Shown in pieces: positions 57,404-61,886 of a DNA stretch of 64,000 nt; within the stretch, counting starts at the first letter, position 1, and each line of letters begins with the position of its first letter. The position numbers and the translations under genes are program-made. Under the pieces are notes generated by a model, which had not been told where the DNA came from, made no database searches, and worked only from the letters and a program-made list of their open reading frames with translations. Source of the stretch: Escherichia phage RB16. The DNA lies in the sequence record NC_014467.1. One strand, 5' to 3'.

Positions 57404-58483
57404 ATGCAAGATTACGGACACTGGAAAACTCTAAAGGATGTTGACATTAGTAATTACTTGGGATTTGTCTACGTAATTACATTTGAAAATGGTAAAAAAT
57501 ACGTGGGGGCTAAAAAGATATGGAAACGTATAAAAGTTCCTCCATCTTCGTTTAAGCGCGGCCCCCGAAAGGGTTTTGAAGAATCGGACTGGAAAACGTA
57601 TACATCATCATCGAAAGAAGTTAATGATATGATTTCCAGTGGAATACAACCTAAAGATTATTTGATTGTTGGTTGGTATGATTCATGGGGTAAAACTTTG
57701 TTAGCAGAGGCTGAAATGCAATTCTCTAACGATGTTCTCCGAAATCCTGAATGGTTGAACAAGCAAATCGGTGGTCATTTTAATCCTAACTGTTTTGATG
57801 ATTTGACTTATGAAGACATCGAAAGGTACATGCATTTCGATAAAGGGAATGAACACACATCGTGGCCCGTAATGTATCGAGTTGGTAGTAAAACGAAATA
57901 TGTTAACCCTGATGAAGTAGAATCACATTTACAGCAAGGTTGGCAGTTCGGAAGAAGTAGATTAGAAAAGTTGTCTGTTGTCTGTGTTGTTAGCAAATAT
58001 AAACTTTATAATACAAAAACTGATGAAGTTGTTGAAGTTGTTAATCAAAATGAATTTGCGCGACAGCATAATATAGAATCGGGACACTTGACAAATTTGT
58101 TGAAAGGTTCTACTGATAGTGTGGGTGATTGGACATTATTGCCAGAAGTCAGAAGAAAGAACTATGTCATCGAAGATGATAAAGGTAATAAATTCTCGTC
58201 TGTGTCTGAATGTGAAAGAGCTAATGGATTGAAACGAGGTGCTGCTACTTCTCTATGTAAAAAAGGGATCTATAAGAAAATGGTTCCTGAATCCAGGACT
58301 CTTTATAAGAAACGGTTATCAACTATTAACTATGTTGAATCTTGTCGTGTTGAATCTGTTTCTAAGATAACAGAAAACAGTTTTCGTGGTCTTGTTCCAG
58401 ATCTTGCTGTATTGCATGATTCGAAAGAATCTGTTATTCTGTGGCTTGAACAATACATATCCTATCTAAAGGCAATGAAATGA
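57404..58483 (+). CDS. putative homing endonuclease with GIY-YIG-like N-terminal motif, inserted between nrdC and nrdD
   Basis: YLGFVYVITFENGKKYVGAKK resembles a GIY-x10-YIG core; 359 aa; 4-nt overlap with nrdD start. Confidence 0.5.
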   Translation: MQDYGHWKTLKDVDISNYLGFVYVITFENGKKYVGAKKIWKRIKVPPSSFKRGPRKGFEESDWKTYTSSSKEVNDMISSGIQPKDYLIVGWYDSWGKTLLAEAEMQFSNDVLRNPEWLNKQIGGHFNPNCFDDLTYEDIERYMHFDKGNEHTSWPVMYRVGSKTKYVNPDEVESHLQQGWQFGRSRLEKLSVVCVVSKYKLYNTKTDEVVEVVNQNEFARQHNIESGHLTNLLKGSTDSVGDWTLLPEVRRKNYVIEDDKGNKFSSVSECERANGLKRGAATSLCKKGIYKKMVPESRTLYKKRLSTINYVESCRVESVSKITENSFRGLVPDLAVLHDSKESVILWLEQYISYLKAMK

Positions 58484-60609
58484 AAGTAGAAAAACGCGAC
58501 GGCAAAACCGTTGATTTTGATAAAGAAAAAATCCGTATTGCTGTAGAAAAAGCTGGCGGAACTATGACGGATGCTGATGCCGCAATCATGCTGGTTCAGT
58601 ACAATCAGATCCGCGATGGTAGCGCAATGAAGATCGCCCGTATCCAGGAACTCGTTGAAGAATCCCTGATGAAAACGAACCCAGCGGTCGCCCGTGCATA
58701 CATCGAATATCGCCACGATCGCGATATTGCCCGTGAACAGAAAAGTAAGCTGTTCAAAGATATCTCCGGCATGGTGAATCTGTCCAACAAAGAGATCACC
58801 AACGAGAACGCAAACAAAGACGCACGGGTATTCCCTACACAGCGTGATTTGCTGGCGGGTATTGTAGCGAAGCATTTCGCCCGTAATCATATCCTTCCGA
58901 AACATATCGTAGAAGCGCATGACTCCGGCGACATCCATTATCACGATCTGGACTATAGCCCGTTCACCCCTTACACTAACTGCTGTCTGGTTGACCTGAA
59001 AGGTATGCTTGAGAACGGTTTCAAGATGGGTAACGCGGACATTGAACCGCCTAAATCGATCGGTGTTGCTACCGCTCTCATGGCGCAGATCACCGCACAG
59101 ATTGCCTCTCACCAGTACGGCGGGACAACCTTTGCGAACGTTGATAAAGTGCTGGCTCCATACGTAGAAATGACATTCTTCAAACATCTGCGCGATGCTG
59201 AACATTATGGTATCGAACACTATAACGATTATGTGTATGCAATCGAGAAGACCGAAAAAGATGTATTCGATGCGTTCCAGTCCTATGAGTATGAAGTGAA
59301 TACCCTGCATACTGCCAACGGGCAAACCCCGTTTGTTACCATCACTTTCGGTACTGGTACAAGCGACTATGAACGCATGATCCAGAAAGCGATTCTGAAA
59401 AATCGTATTCGCGGCCTGGGTAAAGAGGGTATCACTCCGGTATTCCCTAAACTGGTTATGTTCATGGAAAAAGGAATCAACCTTGATCCAGAGGATCAGA
59501 ACTATGACATCAAACAACTTGCCCTTGAATGTGCTTCGAAACGCATGTACCCAGATATCATTAGTTCAGCTAATAACCGCGCTATTACTGGTTCTAGCGT
59601 TCCTGTATCTCCTATGGGTTGTCGCAGTTTCCTTAGCGTGTGGCATGATGATAACGGTAATGAAATTCTGGATGGACGTAATAATCTGGGTGTGGTGACA
59701 ATCAACCTCCCACGTATTGCGATCGAAGCCGAAGCACAGGAAGAAGAAGACGCACACGATGCATTTTGGCGTATCCTTGATGAACGTCTGGATCTTTGTT
59801 ACGATGCTCTGATGACTCGTATCGAAAGCCTACGCGGTGTTAAAGCCAGTGTAGCCCCGATCCTGTACACAGAAGGTGCGTTTGGTGTACGCCTGAAACC
59901 GGATGATGAAATTCTGGAACTGTTCAAAAATGGGCGTAGTTCTATCAGTCTGGGCTATATCGGGCTGCATGAAACGCTGTTGATGTTTGGCTCCGGTCAA
60001 CATCCATTCGATCGCGTTGGCTCCCAGAACTTCGGTAAACACGTTCTGGAACACCTGAAAAACAAAACTGAACGCTGGAAAGCCGAAACTGGGTATGGAT
60101 TCAGTCTGTATTCAACCCCAGCGGAATCTCTCTGCCATCGCTTCTGTAAGCTGGACTTTGAGAAGTTCGGAAGCATCAAAGGGGTCACGGATAAAGGCTG
60201 GTATACAAACAGTTTCCATCTGGACGTTGACCGCAAGGTAACACCGTTCGAGAAAATCGACTATGAAGCCGATTATCATTACATCGCTACTGCTGGTCAT
60301 ATCAGTTATGTTGAATTCCCTGATATGAAAAACAACCTGCAAGCCCTGGAAAAAGTCTGGGATTATGCGATGGATAAACTGGACTATTTCGGGACTAACC
60401 TTCCGGTCGATAAGTGCTTTGTATGTGGCTCTGATGACGAGTTCACGCCTACAGAAGACGGTTTCCACTGCAAACACTGCGGTAATCACGATCCGGCTAA
60501 AATGAGCGTCACGCGCCGTACATGCGGTTATCTGGGTGCTCCTGCTGTTCGTGGATTCAACGAAGGTAAGAACAAAGAAATGATGCACCGAACTAAGCAT
60601 CAAAATTAA
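58480..60609 (+). CDS. nrdD: anaerobic ribonucleoside-triphosphate reductase (NrdD) with N-terminal ATP-cone
   Basis: ATP-cone MKVEKRDGKTVDFDKEKI; glycyl-radical motif RRTCGYLG near C-terminus; CxxC...CxxC zinc site; 709 aa, uninterrupted. Confidence 0.95.
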   Translation: MKVEKRDGKTVDFDKEKIRIAVEKAGGTMTDADAAIMLVQYNQIRDGSAMKIARIQELVEESLMKTNPAVARAYIEYRHDRDIAREQKSKLFKDISGMVNLSNKEITNENANKDARVFPTQRDLLAGIVAKHFARNHILPKHIVEAHDSGDIHYHDLDYSPFTPYTNCCLVDLKGMLENGFKMGNADIEPPKSIGVATALMAQITAQIASHQYGGTTFANVDKVLAPYVEMTFFKHLRDAEHYGIEHYNDYVYAIEKTEKDVFDAFQSYEYEVNTLHTANGQTPFVTITFGTGTSDYERMIQKAILKNRIRGLGKEGITPVFPKLVMFMEKGINLDPEDQNYDIKQLALECASKRMYPDIISSANNRAITGSSVPVSPMGCRSFLSVWHDDNGNEILDGRNNLGVVTINLPRIAIEAEAQEEEDAHDAFWRILDERLDLCYDALMTRIESLRGVKASVAPILYTEGAFGVRLKPDDEILELFKNGRSSISLGYIGLHETLLMFGSGQHPFDRVGSQNFGKHVLEHLKNKTERWKAETGYGFSLYSTPAESLCHRFCKLDFEKFGSIKGVTDKGWYTNSFHLDVDRKVTPFEKIDYEADYHYIATAGHISYVEFPDMKNNLQALEKVWDYAMDKLDYFGTNLPVDKCFVCGSDDEFTPTEDGFHCKHCGNHDPAKMSVTRRTCGYLGAPAVRGFNEGKNKEMMHRTKHQN

Positions 60610-60612
60610 TCA

Positions 60613-60643
60613 AAAAGCCCCTTGCGAAAGTGAGGGGCTTTTG
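60613..60643 (+). terminator. rho-independent terminator after nrdD
   Basis: AAAAGCCCC-ttgcgaaagtga-GGGGCTTTT. Confidence 0.7.
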
Positions 60644-60680
60644 TTATATTGCACATACCGAAACTATGAGGTATTGAAAA

Positions 60681-61163: not shown

Positions 61164-61354
61164 TGTTTCCATTAAAGGCGAGAATTCGCAACAAAACCGG
61201 AACACAAGAATGGATGGAGTGCTTGCGCGAAACTAAGCACTACTACATTTCCCAGGCTGTAGGCTATGACGGAAAGAACATTCGTGCAAAAAGAACGTGC
61301 TGGAGAAGTATGATCCGGCGCTCACATACACCAAAATTGATAAAGATCTGGTAG
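61160..61354 (+). CDS. hypothetical protein (64 aa)
   Basis: ORF track; coupled to upstream ORF. Confidence 0.4.
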   Translation: MMFPLKARIRNKTGTQEWMECLRETKHYYISQAVGYDGKNIRAKRTCWRSMIRRSHTPKLIKIW

Positions 61355-61361
61355 GTGATTT

Positions 61362-61646
61362 ATGCTGATTAACAAAACGCAGTGCAAAGCGATTAACTTT
61401 CTTCTACATGAACTGATTGAAAGCGGTATTCGTTTTGAATTCGTCGATCCGATTAACAGTGATGATCGTCATCTTCTCCGCTGGGTATCTGGTAGCAATC
61501 CGCTGGATTCAGTATCCCAGGTGGTAGAGTCTGCACTTAAACATATGCCTTGTCGTGTTCTGTTGGGTAGCGTTAATGCCTCCACATGGAACGGTTCGGA
61601 TGCTTATTATGTCGGATTCAAAAAAGAGTTGACGGACGACGAATGA
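61362..61646 (+). CDS. hypothetical protein (94 aa)
   Basis: ORF track. Confidence 0.45.
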   Translation: MLINKTQCKAINFLLHELIESGIRFEFVDPINSDDRHLLRWVSGSNPLDSVSQVVESALKHMPCRVLLGSVNASTWNGSDAYYVGFKKELTDDE

Positions 61647-61691
61647 TGTTATAATATGCCCCTGTAGACAACAAACTATAGGGGCTAAATC

Positions 61692-61886
61692 ATGAAAATC
61701 AAAAATACTGCTACTGAAAATCTTTGTAACGAAATCGCGGTGACTTACTGGAAAGAAGGTCACGTAAAAGCAATGAAGGATTTTCAACAGTGGTGTGATA
61801 CCCAGAAGTTAGCCAACTGGGAATACGCCGTAATCGTGGAACGGATCAAAGAACTGATCCTTGAGAAGAAAGGCACTATAAAATGA
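61692..61886 (+). CDS. hypothetical protein (64 aa)
   Basis: ORF track. Confidence 0.4.
   Translation: MKIKNTATENLCNEIAVTYWKEGHVKAMKDFQQWCDTQKLANWEYAVIVERIKELILEKKGTIK

What the first reader, a model, noticed from the sequence alone, without database searches (positions are those of the whole stretch)
57404..61886. nrdD is intron-free, has an ATP-cone, is preceded by an endonuclease-like gene and separated from nrdG by four small ORFs
T4 nrdD carries a group I intron encoding an endonuclease and lies next to nrdG (from memory). Here nrdD is a single 709-aa ORF with an N-terminal ATP-cone. A 359-aa gene with a GIY-YIG-like N-terminal motif overlaps its start by 4 nt. Four small unknown ORFs (60681-61886) lie between nrdD and nrdG. 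The region looks like a hotspot of endonuclease-driven gene turnover.
Basis: partly seen in the sequence, partly recalled or inferred. Interest (0 to 1): 0.35.

Follow-up and report, generated by a model that had tools for sequence, protein, structure and literature searches.

The report
GIY-YIG nuclease gene replacing endonuclease VII
In phage RB16 the gene next to nrdD is a mobile GIY-YIG nuclease that sits exactly where T4-like phages normally keep endonuclease VII (the enzyme that trims branched DNA before packaging), and phages carrying it have no endonuclease VII at all.

Summary
The 359-aa ORF, an intron-free 709-aa NrdD with an ATP-cone, four small ORFs and nrdG are all at the stated coordinates.

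The window is Escherichia phage RB16 (exact protein matches). The 359-aa protein is a SegE-family GIY-YIG nuclease with a homing-endonuclease-like fold.

RB43, Lw1 and phi5 have gene 49 there. Only its last four codons, which carry the nrdD ribosome-binding site, survive in RB16.

The same family replaces gene 49 in Gelderlandvirus (S16 versus CGG4-1) and in KVP40-like vibriophages, where gene 49 lies elsewhere. Three complete genomes carrying it have no endonuclease VII homolog.

Its C-terminal helix matches endonuclease VII. Longer metagenomic relatives keep the whole endonuclease VII dimerisation domain.

The cassette is 100% identical over 1,014 nt between phages whose left flank differs by about 20%, so it moved recently.

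Three small ORFs are conserved genus genes. The fourth is a scar of a 2.1-kb deletion.

Petrov et al. (2010) already named an RB16 "alternative nuclease" for gp49. The chimeric architecture and the cross-genus pattern appear new. Whether the protein substitutes for endonuclease VII is untested.

The parts
56240..57091 (+). Dam-type N6-adenine DNA methyltransferase (left context)
   Evidence: Pfam MethyltransfD12 E 4e-35. Same position in all relatives.
57098..57370 (+). nrdC-like glutaredoxin/thioredoxin. Identical to RB16 NrdC ADJ55546.
   Evidence: Pfam Glutaredoxin E 3.5e-6. Exact match to RB16. 95% nt identity to Lw1 but only 82% to leE/Cronuts.
57377..57403 (+). Left boundary of the swapped cassette: an RB16-specific intergenic stretch carrying the ribosome-binding site of the nuclease gene
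   Evidence: Homology with all relatives ends about 6 nt after the nrdC stop (query covered to 57376). Alignments.
57404..58483 (+). 359-aa SegE-family GIY-YIG nuclease in the gene-49 slot. Identical to RB16 ADJ55547/YP_003858543, probably 'RB16ORF270c'.
57425..57769 (+). GIY-YIG catalytic domain (aa 8-122)
   Evidence: Pfam stretch 8-122. Y23, Y33, G35, E102 and N119 are invariant in family alignments A3 and A5.
57980..58354 (+). Predicted DNA-binding modules (aa 193-317): two beta-hairpin plus helix-turn-helix-like units
58424..58477 (+). C-terminal helix (aa 341-358, 'ILWLEQYISYLK') homologous to endonuclease VII residues about 85-100
   Evidence: W347 and Y351 invariant, Y354 and L355 nearly invariant. 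hhalign places short forms 344-362 against EndoVII 85-103 (E 1e-3). Same register in long forms, E 1.7e-19. P0011 residues 357-430 match T4 EndoVII 84-157, E 1.4e-14.
58469..58483 (+). Right boundary of the cassette: the last codons of the gene-49 allele retained (K-A-M/T-K-stop). They hold the nrdD Shine-Dalgarno sequence (AAGG) and the ATGA stop/start overlap.
   Evidence: Alignment A2: homology among the GIY and EndoVII alleles resumes at AAGGCAAC[G/C]AAATGAAA. blastn HSPs with phi5 and Lw1 restart at 58469.
58480..60609 (+). nrdD, class III ribonucleotide reductase, intron-free, with N-terminal ATP-cone. Identical to RB16 ADJ55548.
   Evidence: Pfam ATP-cone, NRDD and Gly_radical. Exact RB16 match. 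No Rfam intron.
60613..60650 (+). Terminator-like 13-bp stem-loop directly after nrdD, overlapped by a promoter-like site
   Evidence: Consensus scan only.
60681..61163 (+). Small ORF 1, 160 aa, conserved hypothetical (RB16p245)
   Evidence: PHROG 8646 E 6e-87. 99% identical to phi5 ORF162. 79-member cluster. Absent from leE, Cronuts and KLB21, where a Seg-like gene follows nrdD.
61160..61354 (+). Small ORF 2, 64 aa: a deletion-fusion remnant. The junction is at about 61279-61286.
   Evidence: aa 1-42 match the N-terminus of phi5 ORF163. From 61279 the DNA is the last 29 codons of phi5 ORF166 read in another frame. About 2.1 kb is missing relative to phi5, with ATTCGT microhomology at the junction. 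The exact protein is not in the 15-billion-protein collection.
61362..61646 (+). Small ORF 3, 94 aa, conserved hypothetical (RB16p247)
   Evidence: PHROG 7412 E 2.5e-47. Present in all relatives examined. 69-member cluster.
61692..61886 (+). Small ORF 4, 64 aa, conserved hypothetical
   Evidence: PHROG 5072 E 8e-30. The identical sequence occurs on 207 contigs.
61945..62436 (+). nrdG, the radical-SAM activase of NrdD. Identical to RB16 ADJ55554.
   Evidence: Pfam Fer4_12 E 1e-50 and Radical_SAM. Exact RB16 match.

Best explanation
The 359-aa ORF is a laterally mobile nuclease cassette that has replaced gene 49 (endonuclease VII) of a T4-like phage, here RB16.

The protein has three parts: an I-TevI-like GIY-YIG catalytic domain, I-HmuI-like DNA-binding modules, and a short C-terminal helix inherited from endonuclease VII.

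The swap is exact. Everything from just after the nrdC stop to 12 nt before the nrdD start is exchanged. The last four codons of the old gene remain, so nrdD keeps its ribosome-binding site and its 4-nt stop/start coupling.

Most likely mechanism (inferred, not shown): in mixed infections the enzyme cuts the gene-49-bearing allele, and recombinational repair copies the cassette in from the donor. The arms for repair would be nrdC on one side and the 3' end of gene 49 plus nrdD on the other. This would be intron-less homing that overwrites its target gene instead of landing beside it.

Phages with the cassette have no endonuclease VII. The nuclease therefore either supplies the DNA-debranching function itself or these phages do without it. 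That step is open.

The nrdD-nrdG spacer in RB16 is a shortened version of a variable region: three conserved small genes plus one deletion scar.
For: Shown:
1. Nuclease identity and fold.
2. Gene 49 occupies the same slot in phi5, Lw1 and RB43, with the same 4-nt overlap onto nrdD. The boundaries were mapped by alignment.
3. There is no EndoVII homolog in the 64-kb window, nor in the complete genomes of Cronuts, S16 and Bp7, which carry the family in that slot. tblastn with three EndoVII queries found nothing at E<0.1.
4. The same alternation occurs in Gelderlandvirus: S16 has the GIY gene and CGG4-1 has EndoVII after pin. It also occurs in KVP40-like vibriophages, where gene 49 lies between gp31 and rnlB in inverted orientation and the GIY gene takes that exact place and orientation.
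5. Lateral mobility. Codons 20-357 (1,014 nt) are 100% identical between RB16, Cronuts and KLB21, whose hosts are E. coli, Cronobacter and Klebsiella. The adjacent nrdC/dam flank is 80-83% identical to Cronuts/leE and 92-100% to Lw1. The Cronuts-like tract continues about 400-600 nt into nrdD.
6. Sporadic distribution: 8 records (7 phages) among roughly 180 related records.
7. G+C trough over the ORF.
8. EndoVII-derived C-terminus, with long forms that keep the full dimerisation domain in the same slot.

From the literature: Petrov et al. 2010 state that RB16 (RB16ORF270c) and Aeromonas phage 65 (65ORF061w) circumvent gp49 with putative alternative nucleases (PMC2993671). The phage 65 candidate ST65p046 is a homolog.
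Against: - No cleavage site, target or biased inheritance can be shown computationally.
- A classical free-standing homing endonuclease gene lands between genes. This one deletes a gene annotated as essential in RB43 and described as essential in T4 (PMC2993671). That is hard to reconcile with a purely selfish element unless function is replaced.
- The family is conserved over its full length at 50-58% identity across genera, about the same as EndoVII itself. That looks more like a working gene than a decaying parasite.
- The identity RB16ORF270c = this ORF is inferred from position and numbering (RB43 gene 49 is ORF259w). It was not verified.
- Absence of EndoVII from the rest of the RB16 genome rests on the literature. 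Only 64 kb was available.
Confidence: 0.6

Rival explanations
1. Functional substitute. The protein is the phage's DNA-debranching or Holliday-junction-resolving nuclease, a non-orthologous in-situ replacement of endonuclease VII. It evolved by swapping the His-Me catalytic domain of gp49 for a GIY-YIG module while keeping gp49's C-terminal (dimerisation) part. It now moves between phages only by ordinary recombination.
For: - Strict either/or pattern with EndoVII in 3 of 3 complete genomes tested, and allelic alternation at gene 49's own position in three different genomic contexts.
- Long forms P0011, P0018 and P0024 combine GIY-YIG with the full EndoVII dimerisation domain (PF09124 E 6e-14 and 5e-16; Foldseek hit to T4 EndoVII E 1.4e-5) and sit in the same slot with no separate EndoVII N-terminal fragment.
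- The C-terminal EndoVII-like helix is nearly invariant in short forms.
- Divergence between genera is similar to that of EndoVII.
- Translational coupling to nrdD is kept, as for gene 49.
- Petrov et al. proposed this for RB16 and phage 65.
- GIY-YIG enzymes such as SLX1 do resolve junctions (established knowledge; PMC9071465 listed).
Against: - The window protein keeps only about 15-19 residues of EndoVII, and the Vibrio members keep none.
- Near-100% identity across divergent backbones and sporadic distribution are hallmarks of selfish spread.
- There are no biochemical data.
Confidence: 0.35
2. Ordinary Seg-type homing endonuclease that targets nrdD, the conserved neighbour. Loss of gene 49 is collateral and tolerated because endonuclease VII is dispensable in these phages or hosts.
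For: - nrdD and nrdG are known targets of seg and mob endonucleases in T4-like phages (Edgell et al. 2010, PMC2988022).
- The cassette abuts nrdD in RB16, S16 and metagenomic locus L013, and a donor-like tract extends into the nrdD 5' end.
- Gene 49 is only 'quasicore' and is missing from some T4-like phages.
Against: - The family sits in the gene-49 position where no nrdD is adjacent: Bp7, phiR1-RT, Ac42.
- In Vibrio phage 6E35.1a the neighbours are gp31 and rnlB.
- The C-terminus derives from EndoVII, not from nrdD.
- RB43 keeps gene 49 alongside a different endonuclease gene next to nrdD.
Confidence: 0.12
3. Inactive relic: a decaying endonuclease gene with no current activity.
For: Some relatives are broken or shortened. 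These are the Bp7 frameshifts, the CPRSA/CPRSB fragments, and a 33-aa internal deletion in vB_EcoM_005.
Against: - The ORF is intact and the catalytic-motif residues are invariant across about 20 sequences at 50% identity.
- The Bp7 record also splits portal, gp46, uvsW and motA, so its frameshifts are probably sequencing errors.
Confidence: 0.03

Closest known systems
T4 SegE and the Seg family of free-standing GIY-YIG homing endonucleases
   Same: Same Pfam domain (PF19835, 117.8 bits). Modular nuclease plus DNA-binding architecture. Sporadic distribution and lateral spread among T4-like phages.
   Different: Per Edgell et al. (PMC2988022), SegE sits between inh and uvsW and cuts uvsW, beside its insertion site. 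This family overwrites a whole gene (gene 49) and carries a piece of that gene at its C-terminus.
RB16ORF270c and 65ORF061w, the 'putative alternative nucleases' of Petrov et al. 2006/2010
   Same: Almost certainly the same gene. The window is RB16. The ORF fills the gene-49 slot, and the phage 65 candidate ST65p046 is a homolog (E 2e-49). The published idea is that the need for gp49 is circumvented.
   Different: The literature gives one sentence and no analysis. Not found in the searched literature: the EndoVII-derived C-terminus, the long GIY::EndoVII-dimerisation forms, the exact boundaries, the recurrence in Gelderlandvirus and KVP40-like phages, and the evidence for recent lateral transfer.
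T4 endonuclease VII (gp49; PF02945 + PF09124)
   Same: Same genomic position and the same 4-nt coupling to nrdD. One C-terminal helix is shared, and long-form relatives share residues 84-157.
   Different: The zinc/His-Me catalytic domain is absent, with no PF02945 hit. The window protein lacks the dimerisation domain proper.
F-CphI of cyanophage S-PM2 (Fang et al. 2018, PMC6083498)
   Same: A chimera between homing-endonuclease and endonuclease VII parts in a T4-like phage.
   Different: It is the mirror image. F-CphI uses the EndoVII catalytic domain in a proven homing enzyme. Here a GIY-YIG catalytic domain is joined to the non-catalytic C-terminal part of EndoVII.
SLX1 and other structure-selective GIY-YIG nucleases
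   Same: Same catalytic superfamily. They show that GIY-YIG domains can resolve Holliday junctions (PMC9071465).

Membership tests
SegE-like GIY-YIG nucleases (Pfam PF19835) | HMM score above the curated gathering threshold | tested here: met
   117.8 bits against a cut-off of 25, E 4e-34, aa 8-122.
SegE-like GIY-YIG nucleases (Pfam PF19835) | Conserved GIY...YIG motifs and catalytic Glu/Asn | tested here: met
   Y23, Y33, G35, E102 and N119 are invariant in alignments A3 and A5. Their mapping onto the I-TevI catalytic residues is by analogy, not tested.
SegE-like GIY-YIG nucleases (Pfam PF19835) | GIY-YIG fold | tested here: met
Free-standing homing endonuclease genes (intron-less homing) | Nuclease domain joined to a modular, extended DNA-binding region | tested here: met
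Free-standing homing endonuclease genes (intron-less homing) | Sporadic presence among close relatives | tested here: met
   Homologs above 90% identity occur in 8 records (7 phages) among about 180 related records. Both alleles are also found within Gelderlandvirus.
Free-standing homing endonuclease genes (intron-less homing) | Element much more similar between genomes than its flanks (lateral transfer, co-conversion) | tested here: met
   1,014 nt are 100% identical to Cronuts and KLB21, against 80-83% in the left flank. A donor-like tract runs into the nrdD 5' end.
Free-standing homing endonuclease genes (intron-less homing) | Inserted between conserved genes, leaving them intact | tested here: not met
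   It replaces the whole gene 49 ORF except its last four codons.
Free-standing homing endonuclease genes (intron-less homing) | Site-specific cleavage of the allele lacking the gene, with super-Mendelian inheritance | not testable with these tools
   Needs enzyme assays and phage crosses.
Endonuclease VII / gp49 | N-terminal zinc/His-Me catalytic domain (PF02945) | tested here: not met
   No Pfam hit at E<=0.1. tblastn with EndoVII queries finds nothing at E<0.1 in the window.
Endonuclease VII / gp49 | C-terminal dimerisation domain (PF09124) | tested here: not met
   Only one helix is retained in the window protein (hhalign E 1e-3, 19 columns). The domain is complete in long-form homologs P0011 and P0024.
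Endonuclease VII / gp49 | Genomic position of gene 49 | tested here: met
   Same slot as gene 49 of RB43, Lw1, phi5 and CGG4-1, and of KVP40 for the Vibrio member.
Endonuclease VII / gp49 | Cleavage of Holliday junctions and branched DNA | not testable with these tools
   Biochemistry required.
T4-type nrdD with group I intron and I-TevII | Group I intron interrupting nrdD | tested here: not met
   Single 709-aa ORF with a full-length NRDD match. No Rfam intron hit at E<=1.
Class III ribonucleotide reductase NrdD/NrdG | NRDD and glycyl-radical domains, plus a radical-SAM activase nearby | tested here: met
   PF13597 E 9e-182, PF01228 E 5e-25, ATP-cone E 2e-18. NrdG gives Fer4_12 E 1e-50.

The most novel reading that the evidence does not exclude
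The family is a 'replace-and-rescue' element. It is a GIY-YIG nuclease built on the non-catalytic scaffold of endonuclease VII. It destroys gene 49 when it invades and itself provides the branch-resolving activity needed for DNA packaging. That would be a natural catalytic-module swap in an essential phage nuclease that spreads like a homing endonuclease.
Probability: 0.25. Interest if true: 0.75.

Novelty: new variant of a known kind. Interest (0 to 1): 0.5.

Why it matters
Endonuclease VII is the textbook junction-resolving and packaging nuclease of T4, where it is described as essential.

A nuclease of a different superfamily takes its exact place in at least three genomic contexts of T4-like phages, and it carries a fragment of the enzyme it replaced. 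This gives a concrete, testable case of one of two things:
- non-orthologous displacement of an essential enzyme, or
- a selfish element that can afford to overwrite an essential gene.

RB16 and RB43 are laboratory coliphages that differ at this locus, so crosses, knockouts and enzyme assays are straightforward.

For annotation, the result warns against labelling this family simply 'homing endonuclease' or 'hypothetical', and against scoring gene 49 as merely 'lost'.

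Tried and rejected
- RB16 DNA could not be fetched. HM134276 and NC_014467 are not in the phage collection, and the exact-protein contig look-up found nothing. The source of the window was therefore established from exact protein matches.
- The Petrov 2006 J Mol Biol paper is not held, so RB16ORF270c could not be mapped directly.
- The profile of the family against PDB sequences gave no hit.
- hhalign of short forms alone against EndoVII is weak (E 1e-3, probability 22%). It is accepted only because the register matches the strong long-form alignment.
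- The broken Bp7 copy was considered as evidence that both nucleases are dispensable. This was rejected because the Bp7 record also splits portal, gp46, uvsW and motA, which points to sequencing errors.
- nrdD was considered as the target. This is disfavoured because the family tracks gene 49 in contexts without nrdD.
- Rfam and promoter/terminator scans added nothing decisive.
- A full presence/absence matrix over all Straboviridae could not be built, because search outputs list at most 60 records.

Full report
**What is there**

The ORF map matches the finding. In order, the ORFs are:
- a Dam methylase, 56240-57091;
- an nrdC-like glutaredoxin, 57098-57370;
- a 359-aa ORF, 57404-58483, whose stop overlaps the nrdD start by 4 nt;
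- nrdD, 58480-60609, 709 aa;
- four small ORFs, 60681-61886;
- nrdG, 61945-62436.

Pfam confirms ATP-cone, NRDD and Gly_radical in NrdD, and Fer4_12/Radical_SAM in NrdG. nrdD is uninterrupted, and Rfam finds no intron.

The 359-aa protein matches Pfam SegE_GIY-YIG (117.8 bits, cut-off 25) and PHROG 7363 'homing endonuclease' end to end. The ORF lies in a G+C trough of 0.35-0.38, against 0.41-0.50 in the flanks.

**Source of the window**

NrdC, the 359-aa protein, NrdD, ORF1, ORF3, ORF4 and NrdG are each identical to consecutive proteins of Escherichia phage RB16, ADJ55546 to ADJ55554. Four of them are found only in RB16. The window is therefore RB16 (genus Pseudotevenvirus), which is absent from the phage collection that was searched. 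That explains why the best nucleotide matches were only about 92% identical.

In RB43, Lw1, phi5 and most of the roughly 180 related records, the gene between nrdC and nrdD is the 160-aa endonuclease VII (gene 49). It overlaps nrdD by the same 4 nt. In RB16, leE, Cronuts and KLB21 the 359-aa gene stands there instead.

Alignments place the left breakpoint a few bases after the nrdC stop. The right breakpoint is 12 nt before the nrdD ATG, at AAGGCAAC[G/C]AAATGAAA. This keeps the last four codons of gene 49 (K-A-T/M-K-stop), which contain the nrdD Shine-Dalgarno sequence.

No endonuclease VII homolog exists in the 64-kb window. None exists in the complete genomes of Cronuts (Pseudotevenvirus), S16 (Gelderlandvirus) or Bp7 (Dhakavirus), all of which carry the family in that slot. 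tblastn with three EndoVII queries, including a T4-type one, found nothing at E<0.1.

**The family follows gene 49, not nrdD**

Full-length homologs at 50-58% identity lie at the T4 gene-49 position (nrdC ... 49.x ... pin -> X -> nrdD/nrdH ... 55) in S16, Bp7, phiR1-RT and Ac42. Three of these have no nrdD next to the gene.

Within Gelderlandvirus, CGG4-1 has endonuclease VII after pin where S16 has the GIY gene.

In KVP40, gene 49 lies elsewhere, between gp31/0130 and 0132/rnlB, and is transcribed against its neighbours. In the related Vibrio phage 6E35.1a a 326-aa family member occupies exactly that place and orientation. DNA homology breaks at the end of gene 49 and resumes at rnlB.

**Chimeric origin**

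The family alignment shows a nearly invariant C-terminal helix, IxWLxxYIxYLK. This aligns with endonuclease VII residues about 85-100 (WLENLLAYLK).

Three metagenomic homologs (P0011 432 aa, P0018 427 aa, P0024 499 aa) continue beyond the helix into the complete endonuclease VII dimerisation domain:
- P0011 residues 357-430 match T4 EndoVII 84-157, E 1.4e-14.
- Pfam PF09124 gives E 6e-14 and 5e-16, and the domain is duplicated in P0024.
- hhalign gives E 1.7e-19.
- The AF2 model of P0011 finds the T4 EndoVII structures as its best Foldseek hits, E 1.4e-5.

P0011 and P0024, whose contigs were examined, sit in the same Dam-Grx-[X]-nrdD slot with no separate N-terminal EndoVII fragment.

Short forms alone align to EndoVII in the same register, but weakly (E 1e-3).

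The family therefore looks like gene 49 with its zinc/His-Me catalytic half replaced by a GIY-YIG nuclease plus DNA-binding modules, later truncated in most lineages. The Vibrio members lack the helix altogether.

**Fold**

**Mobility**

RB16 differs from Cronuts and KLB21 only in codons 2-19 and 358 of the ORF. Codons 20-357 (1,014 nt) are identical.

Immediately to the left, the nrdC/dam region is 80-83% identical to Cronuts and leE, and 92-100% identical to Lw1, which carries gene 49. To the right, the first 400-600 nt of nrdD are 99-100% Cronuts-like and 79-91% Lw1-like.

The cassette, with some flanking nrdD, has thus moved recently between phages of E. coli, Cronobacter and Klebsiella. 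Close homologs occur in only 8 records, representing 7 phages.

**The nrdD-nrdG spacer**

ORF1, ORF3 and ORF4 are conserved hypothetical genes of the genus (PHROGs 8646, 7412 and 5072; clusters of 79, 69 and 26 members).

ORF2 is a fusion. Its first 42 codons are the start of phi5 ORF163. From 61279 the DNA is the last 29 codons of phi5 ORF166 in another frame. About 2.1 kb (ORFs 163C to 166) is missing, with ATTCGT microhomology at the junction.

Relatives fill the wider interval differently:
- a 283-aa Seg-like gene after nrdD and a 213-aa HNH gene before nrdG in leE and Cronuts; KLB21 shows the Seg-like gene, but its record ends before nrdG;
- an AP2-HNH gene between gene 49 and nrdD in RB43.

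The 'endonuclease hotspot' reading is fair for the phage group. It does not apply to the four RB16 ORFs themselves.

**Literature**

Petrov et al. [quoted passage not shown]

RB43 numbers gene 49 as ORF259w. Phage 65 ST65p046 is a homolog of the RB16 protein (E 2e-49; PF19835 E 7e-30). Both published cases are therefore very probably this family.

Other genome papers simply call it an I-TevI-like homing endonuclease (PMC4177764). I found no description of the EndoVII-derived tail, the long forms or the cross-genus pattern. F-CphI is the inverse chimera (PMC6083498).

**Interpretation**

Shown:
- a GIY-YIG nuclease cassette precisely replaces gene 49;
- it is laterally mobile;
- it recurs at gene 49's position in several lineages;
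- it is mutually exclusive with EndoVII in every genome tested;
- it carries EndoVII-derived sequence.

Inferred:
- It spreads by cutting the gene-49 allele, followed by repair from the donor.

Open:
- Does it supply endonuclease VII's debranching function? An element that overwrites a gene described as essential in T4 could hardly spread without supplying that function or making it unnecessary. I put functional substitution at about 35%, and the combined replace-and-rescue model at about 25%.

**Verdict**

The real feature is the gene-49 displacement. The core fact was noted in passing in 2006/2010. The architecture and generality appear new, and they are directly testable with RB16 and RB43.

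Noticed in passing
window 1-64000: The window is from Escherichia phage RB16 (HM134276). Seven proteins of the region are identical to consecutive RB16 entries ADJ55546-ADJ55554. RB16 itself is missing from the phage collection that was searched.
   Followed up: yes
window 39773-40411 (+): 212-aa GIY-YIG endonuclease with an I-TevI-type DNA-binding domain (E 2e-27). It lies between the major capsid gene (gp23) and the gp24-like vertex gene, the position of segD in T4 (23/24 in the table of PMC2988022).
   Followed up: partly
window 6699-7454 (-) and 12319-12996 (+): Two further endonuclease genes. One is a 251-aa GIY-YIG plus NUMOD3 protein next to a gp4-like (TnsA-like N) gene. The other is a 225-aa HNH plus NUMOD3 protein just upstream of baseplate gp6.
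   Followed up: partly
window 60613-60650 (+): A strong terminator-like hairpin (13-bp stem, AAAAGCCCC...GGGGCTTTT) lies directly after nrdD. A promoter-like site (TTGCGA-17-TATATT with TG) overlaps it.
   Followed up: no
window 57404-57460: The first 19 codons of the RB16 nuclease gene and its upstream spacer differ from Cronuts, leE and KLB21 but match the metagenomic variant P0001. The RB16 copy is therefore itself a recombinant of two alleles.
   Followed up: partly
window 62433-63452 (+): The listed 339-aa ORF starts at TTG, but PHROG 7419 aligns only from residue 24 and the relatives' genes are 316 aa. The real start is probably the ATG at 62502.
   Followed up: no
L001 (leE) 2960-3310: leE has an extra 108-aa ORF of unknown function between the nuclease gene and nrdD. 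It is bracketed by two copies of the junction AAGGCAAC[G/C]AAATGAAA, which suggests the RBS/start junction acts as a recombination joint.
   Followed up: partly
L013 7497-10732: In a 71-kb metagenomic T4-like contig, nrdD is split into pieces by a 164-aa I-HmuI/NUMOD-like endonuclease ORF. This may be an intron or a genes-in-pieces arrangement. The upstream long-form nuclease P0024 has a tandem duplication of the EndoVII dimerisation domain.
   Followed up: no
L029 (RB43) 6425-7410: RB43 keeps gene 49 (annotated 'essential'). It also has a 168-aa AP2-domain HNH endonuclease gene wedged between gene 49 and nrdD, and a 176-aa ORF abutting nrdG.
   Followed up: no
L009, L023-L026 (Bp7, NC_019500): The Bp7 record splits many core genes (portal gp20, gp46, uvsW, motA, nrdB). 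Its apparently frameshifted copy of the nuclease gene is therefore probably a sequencing artefact.
   Followed up: partly
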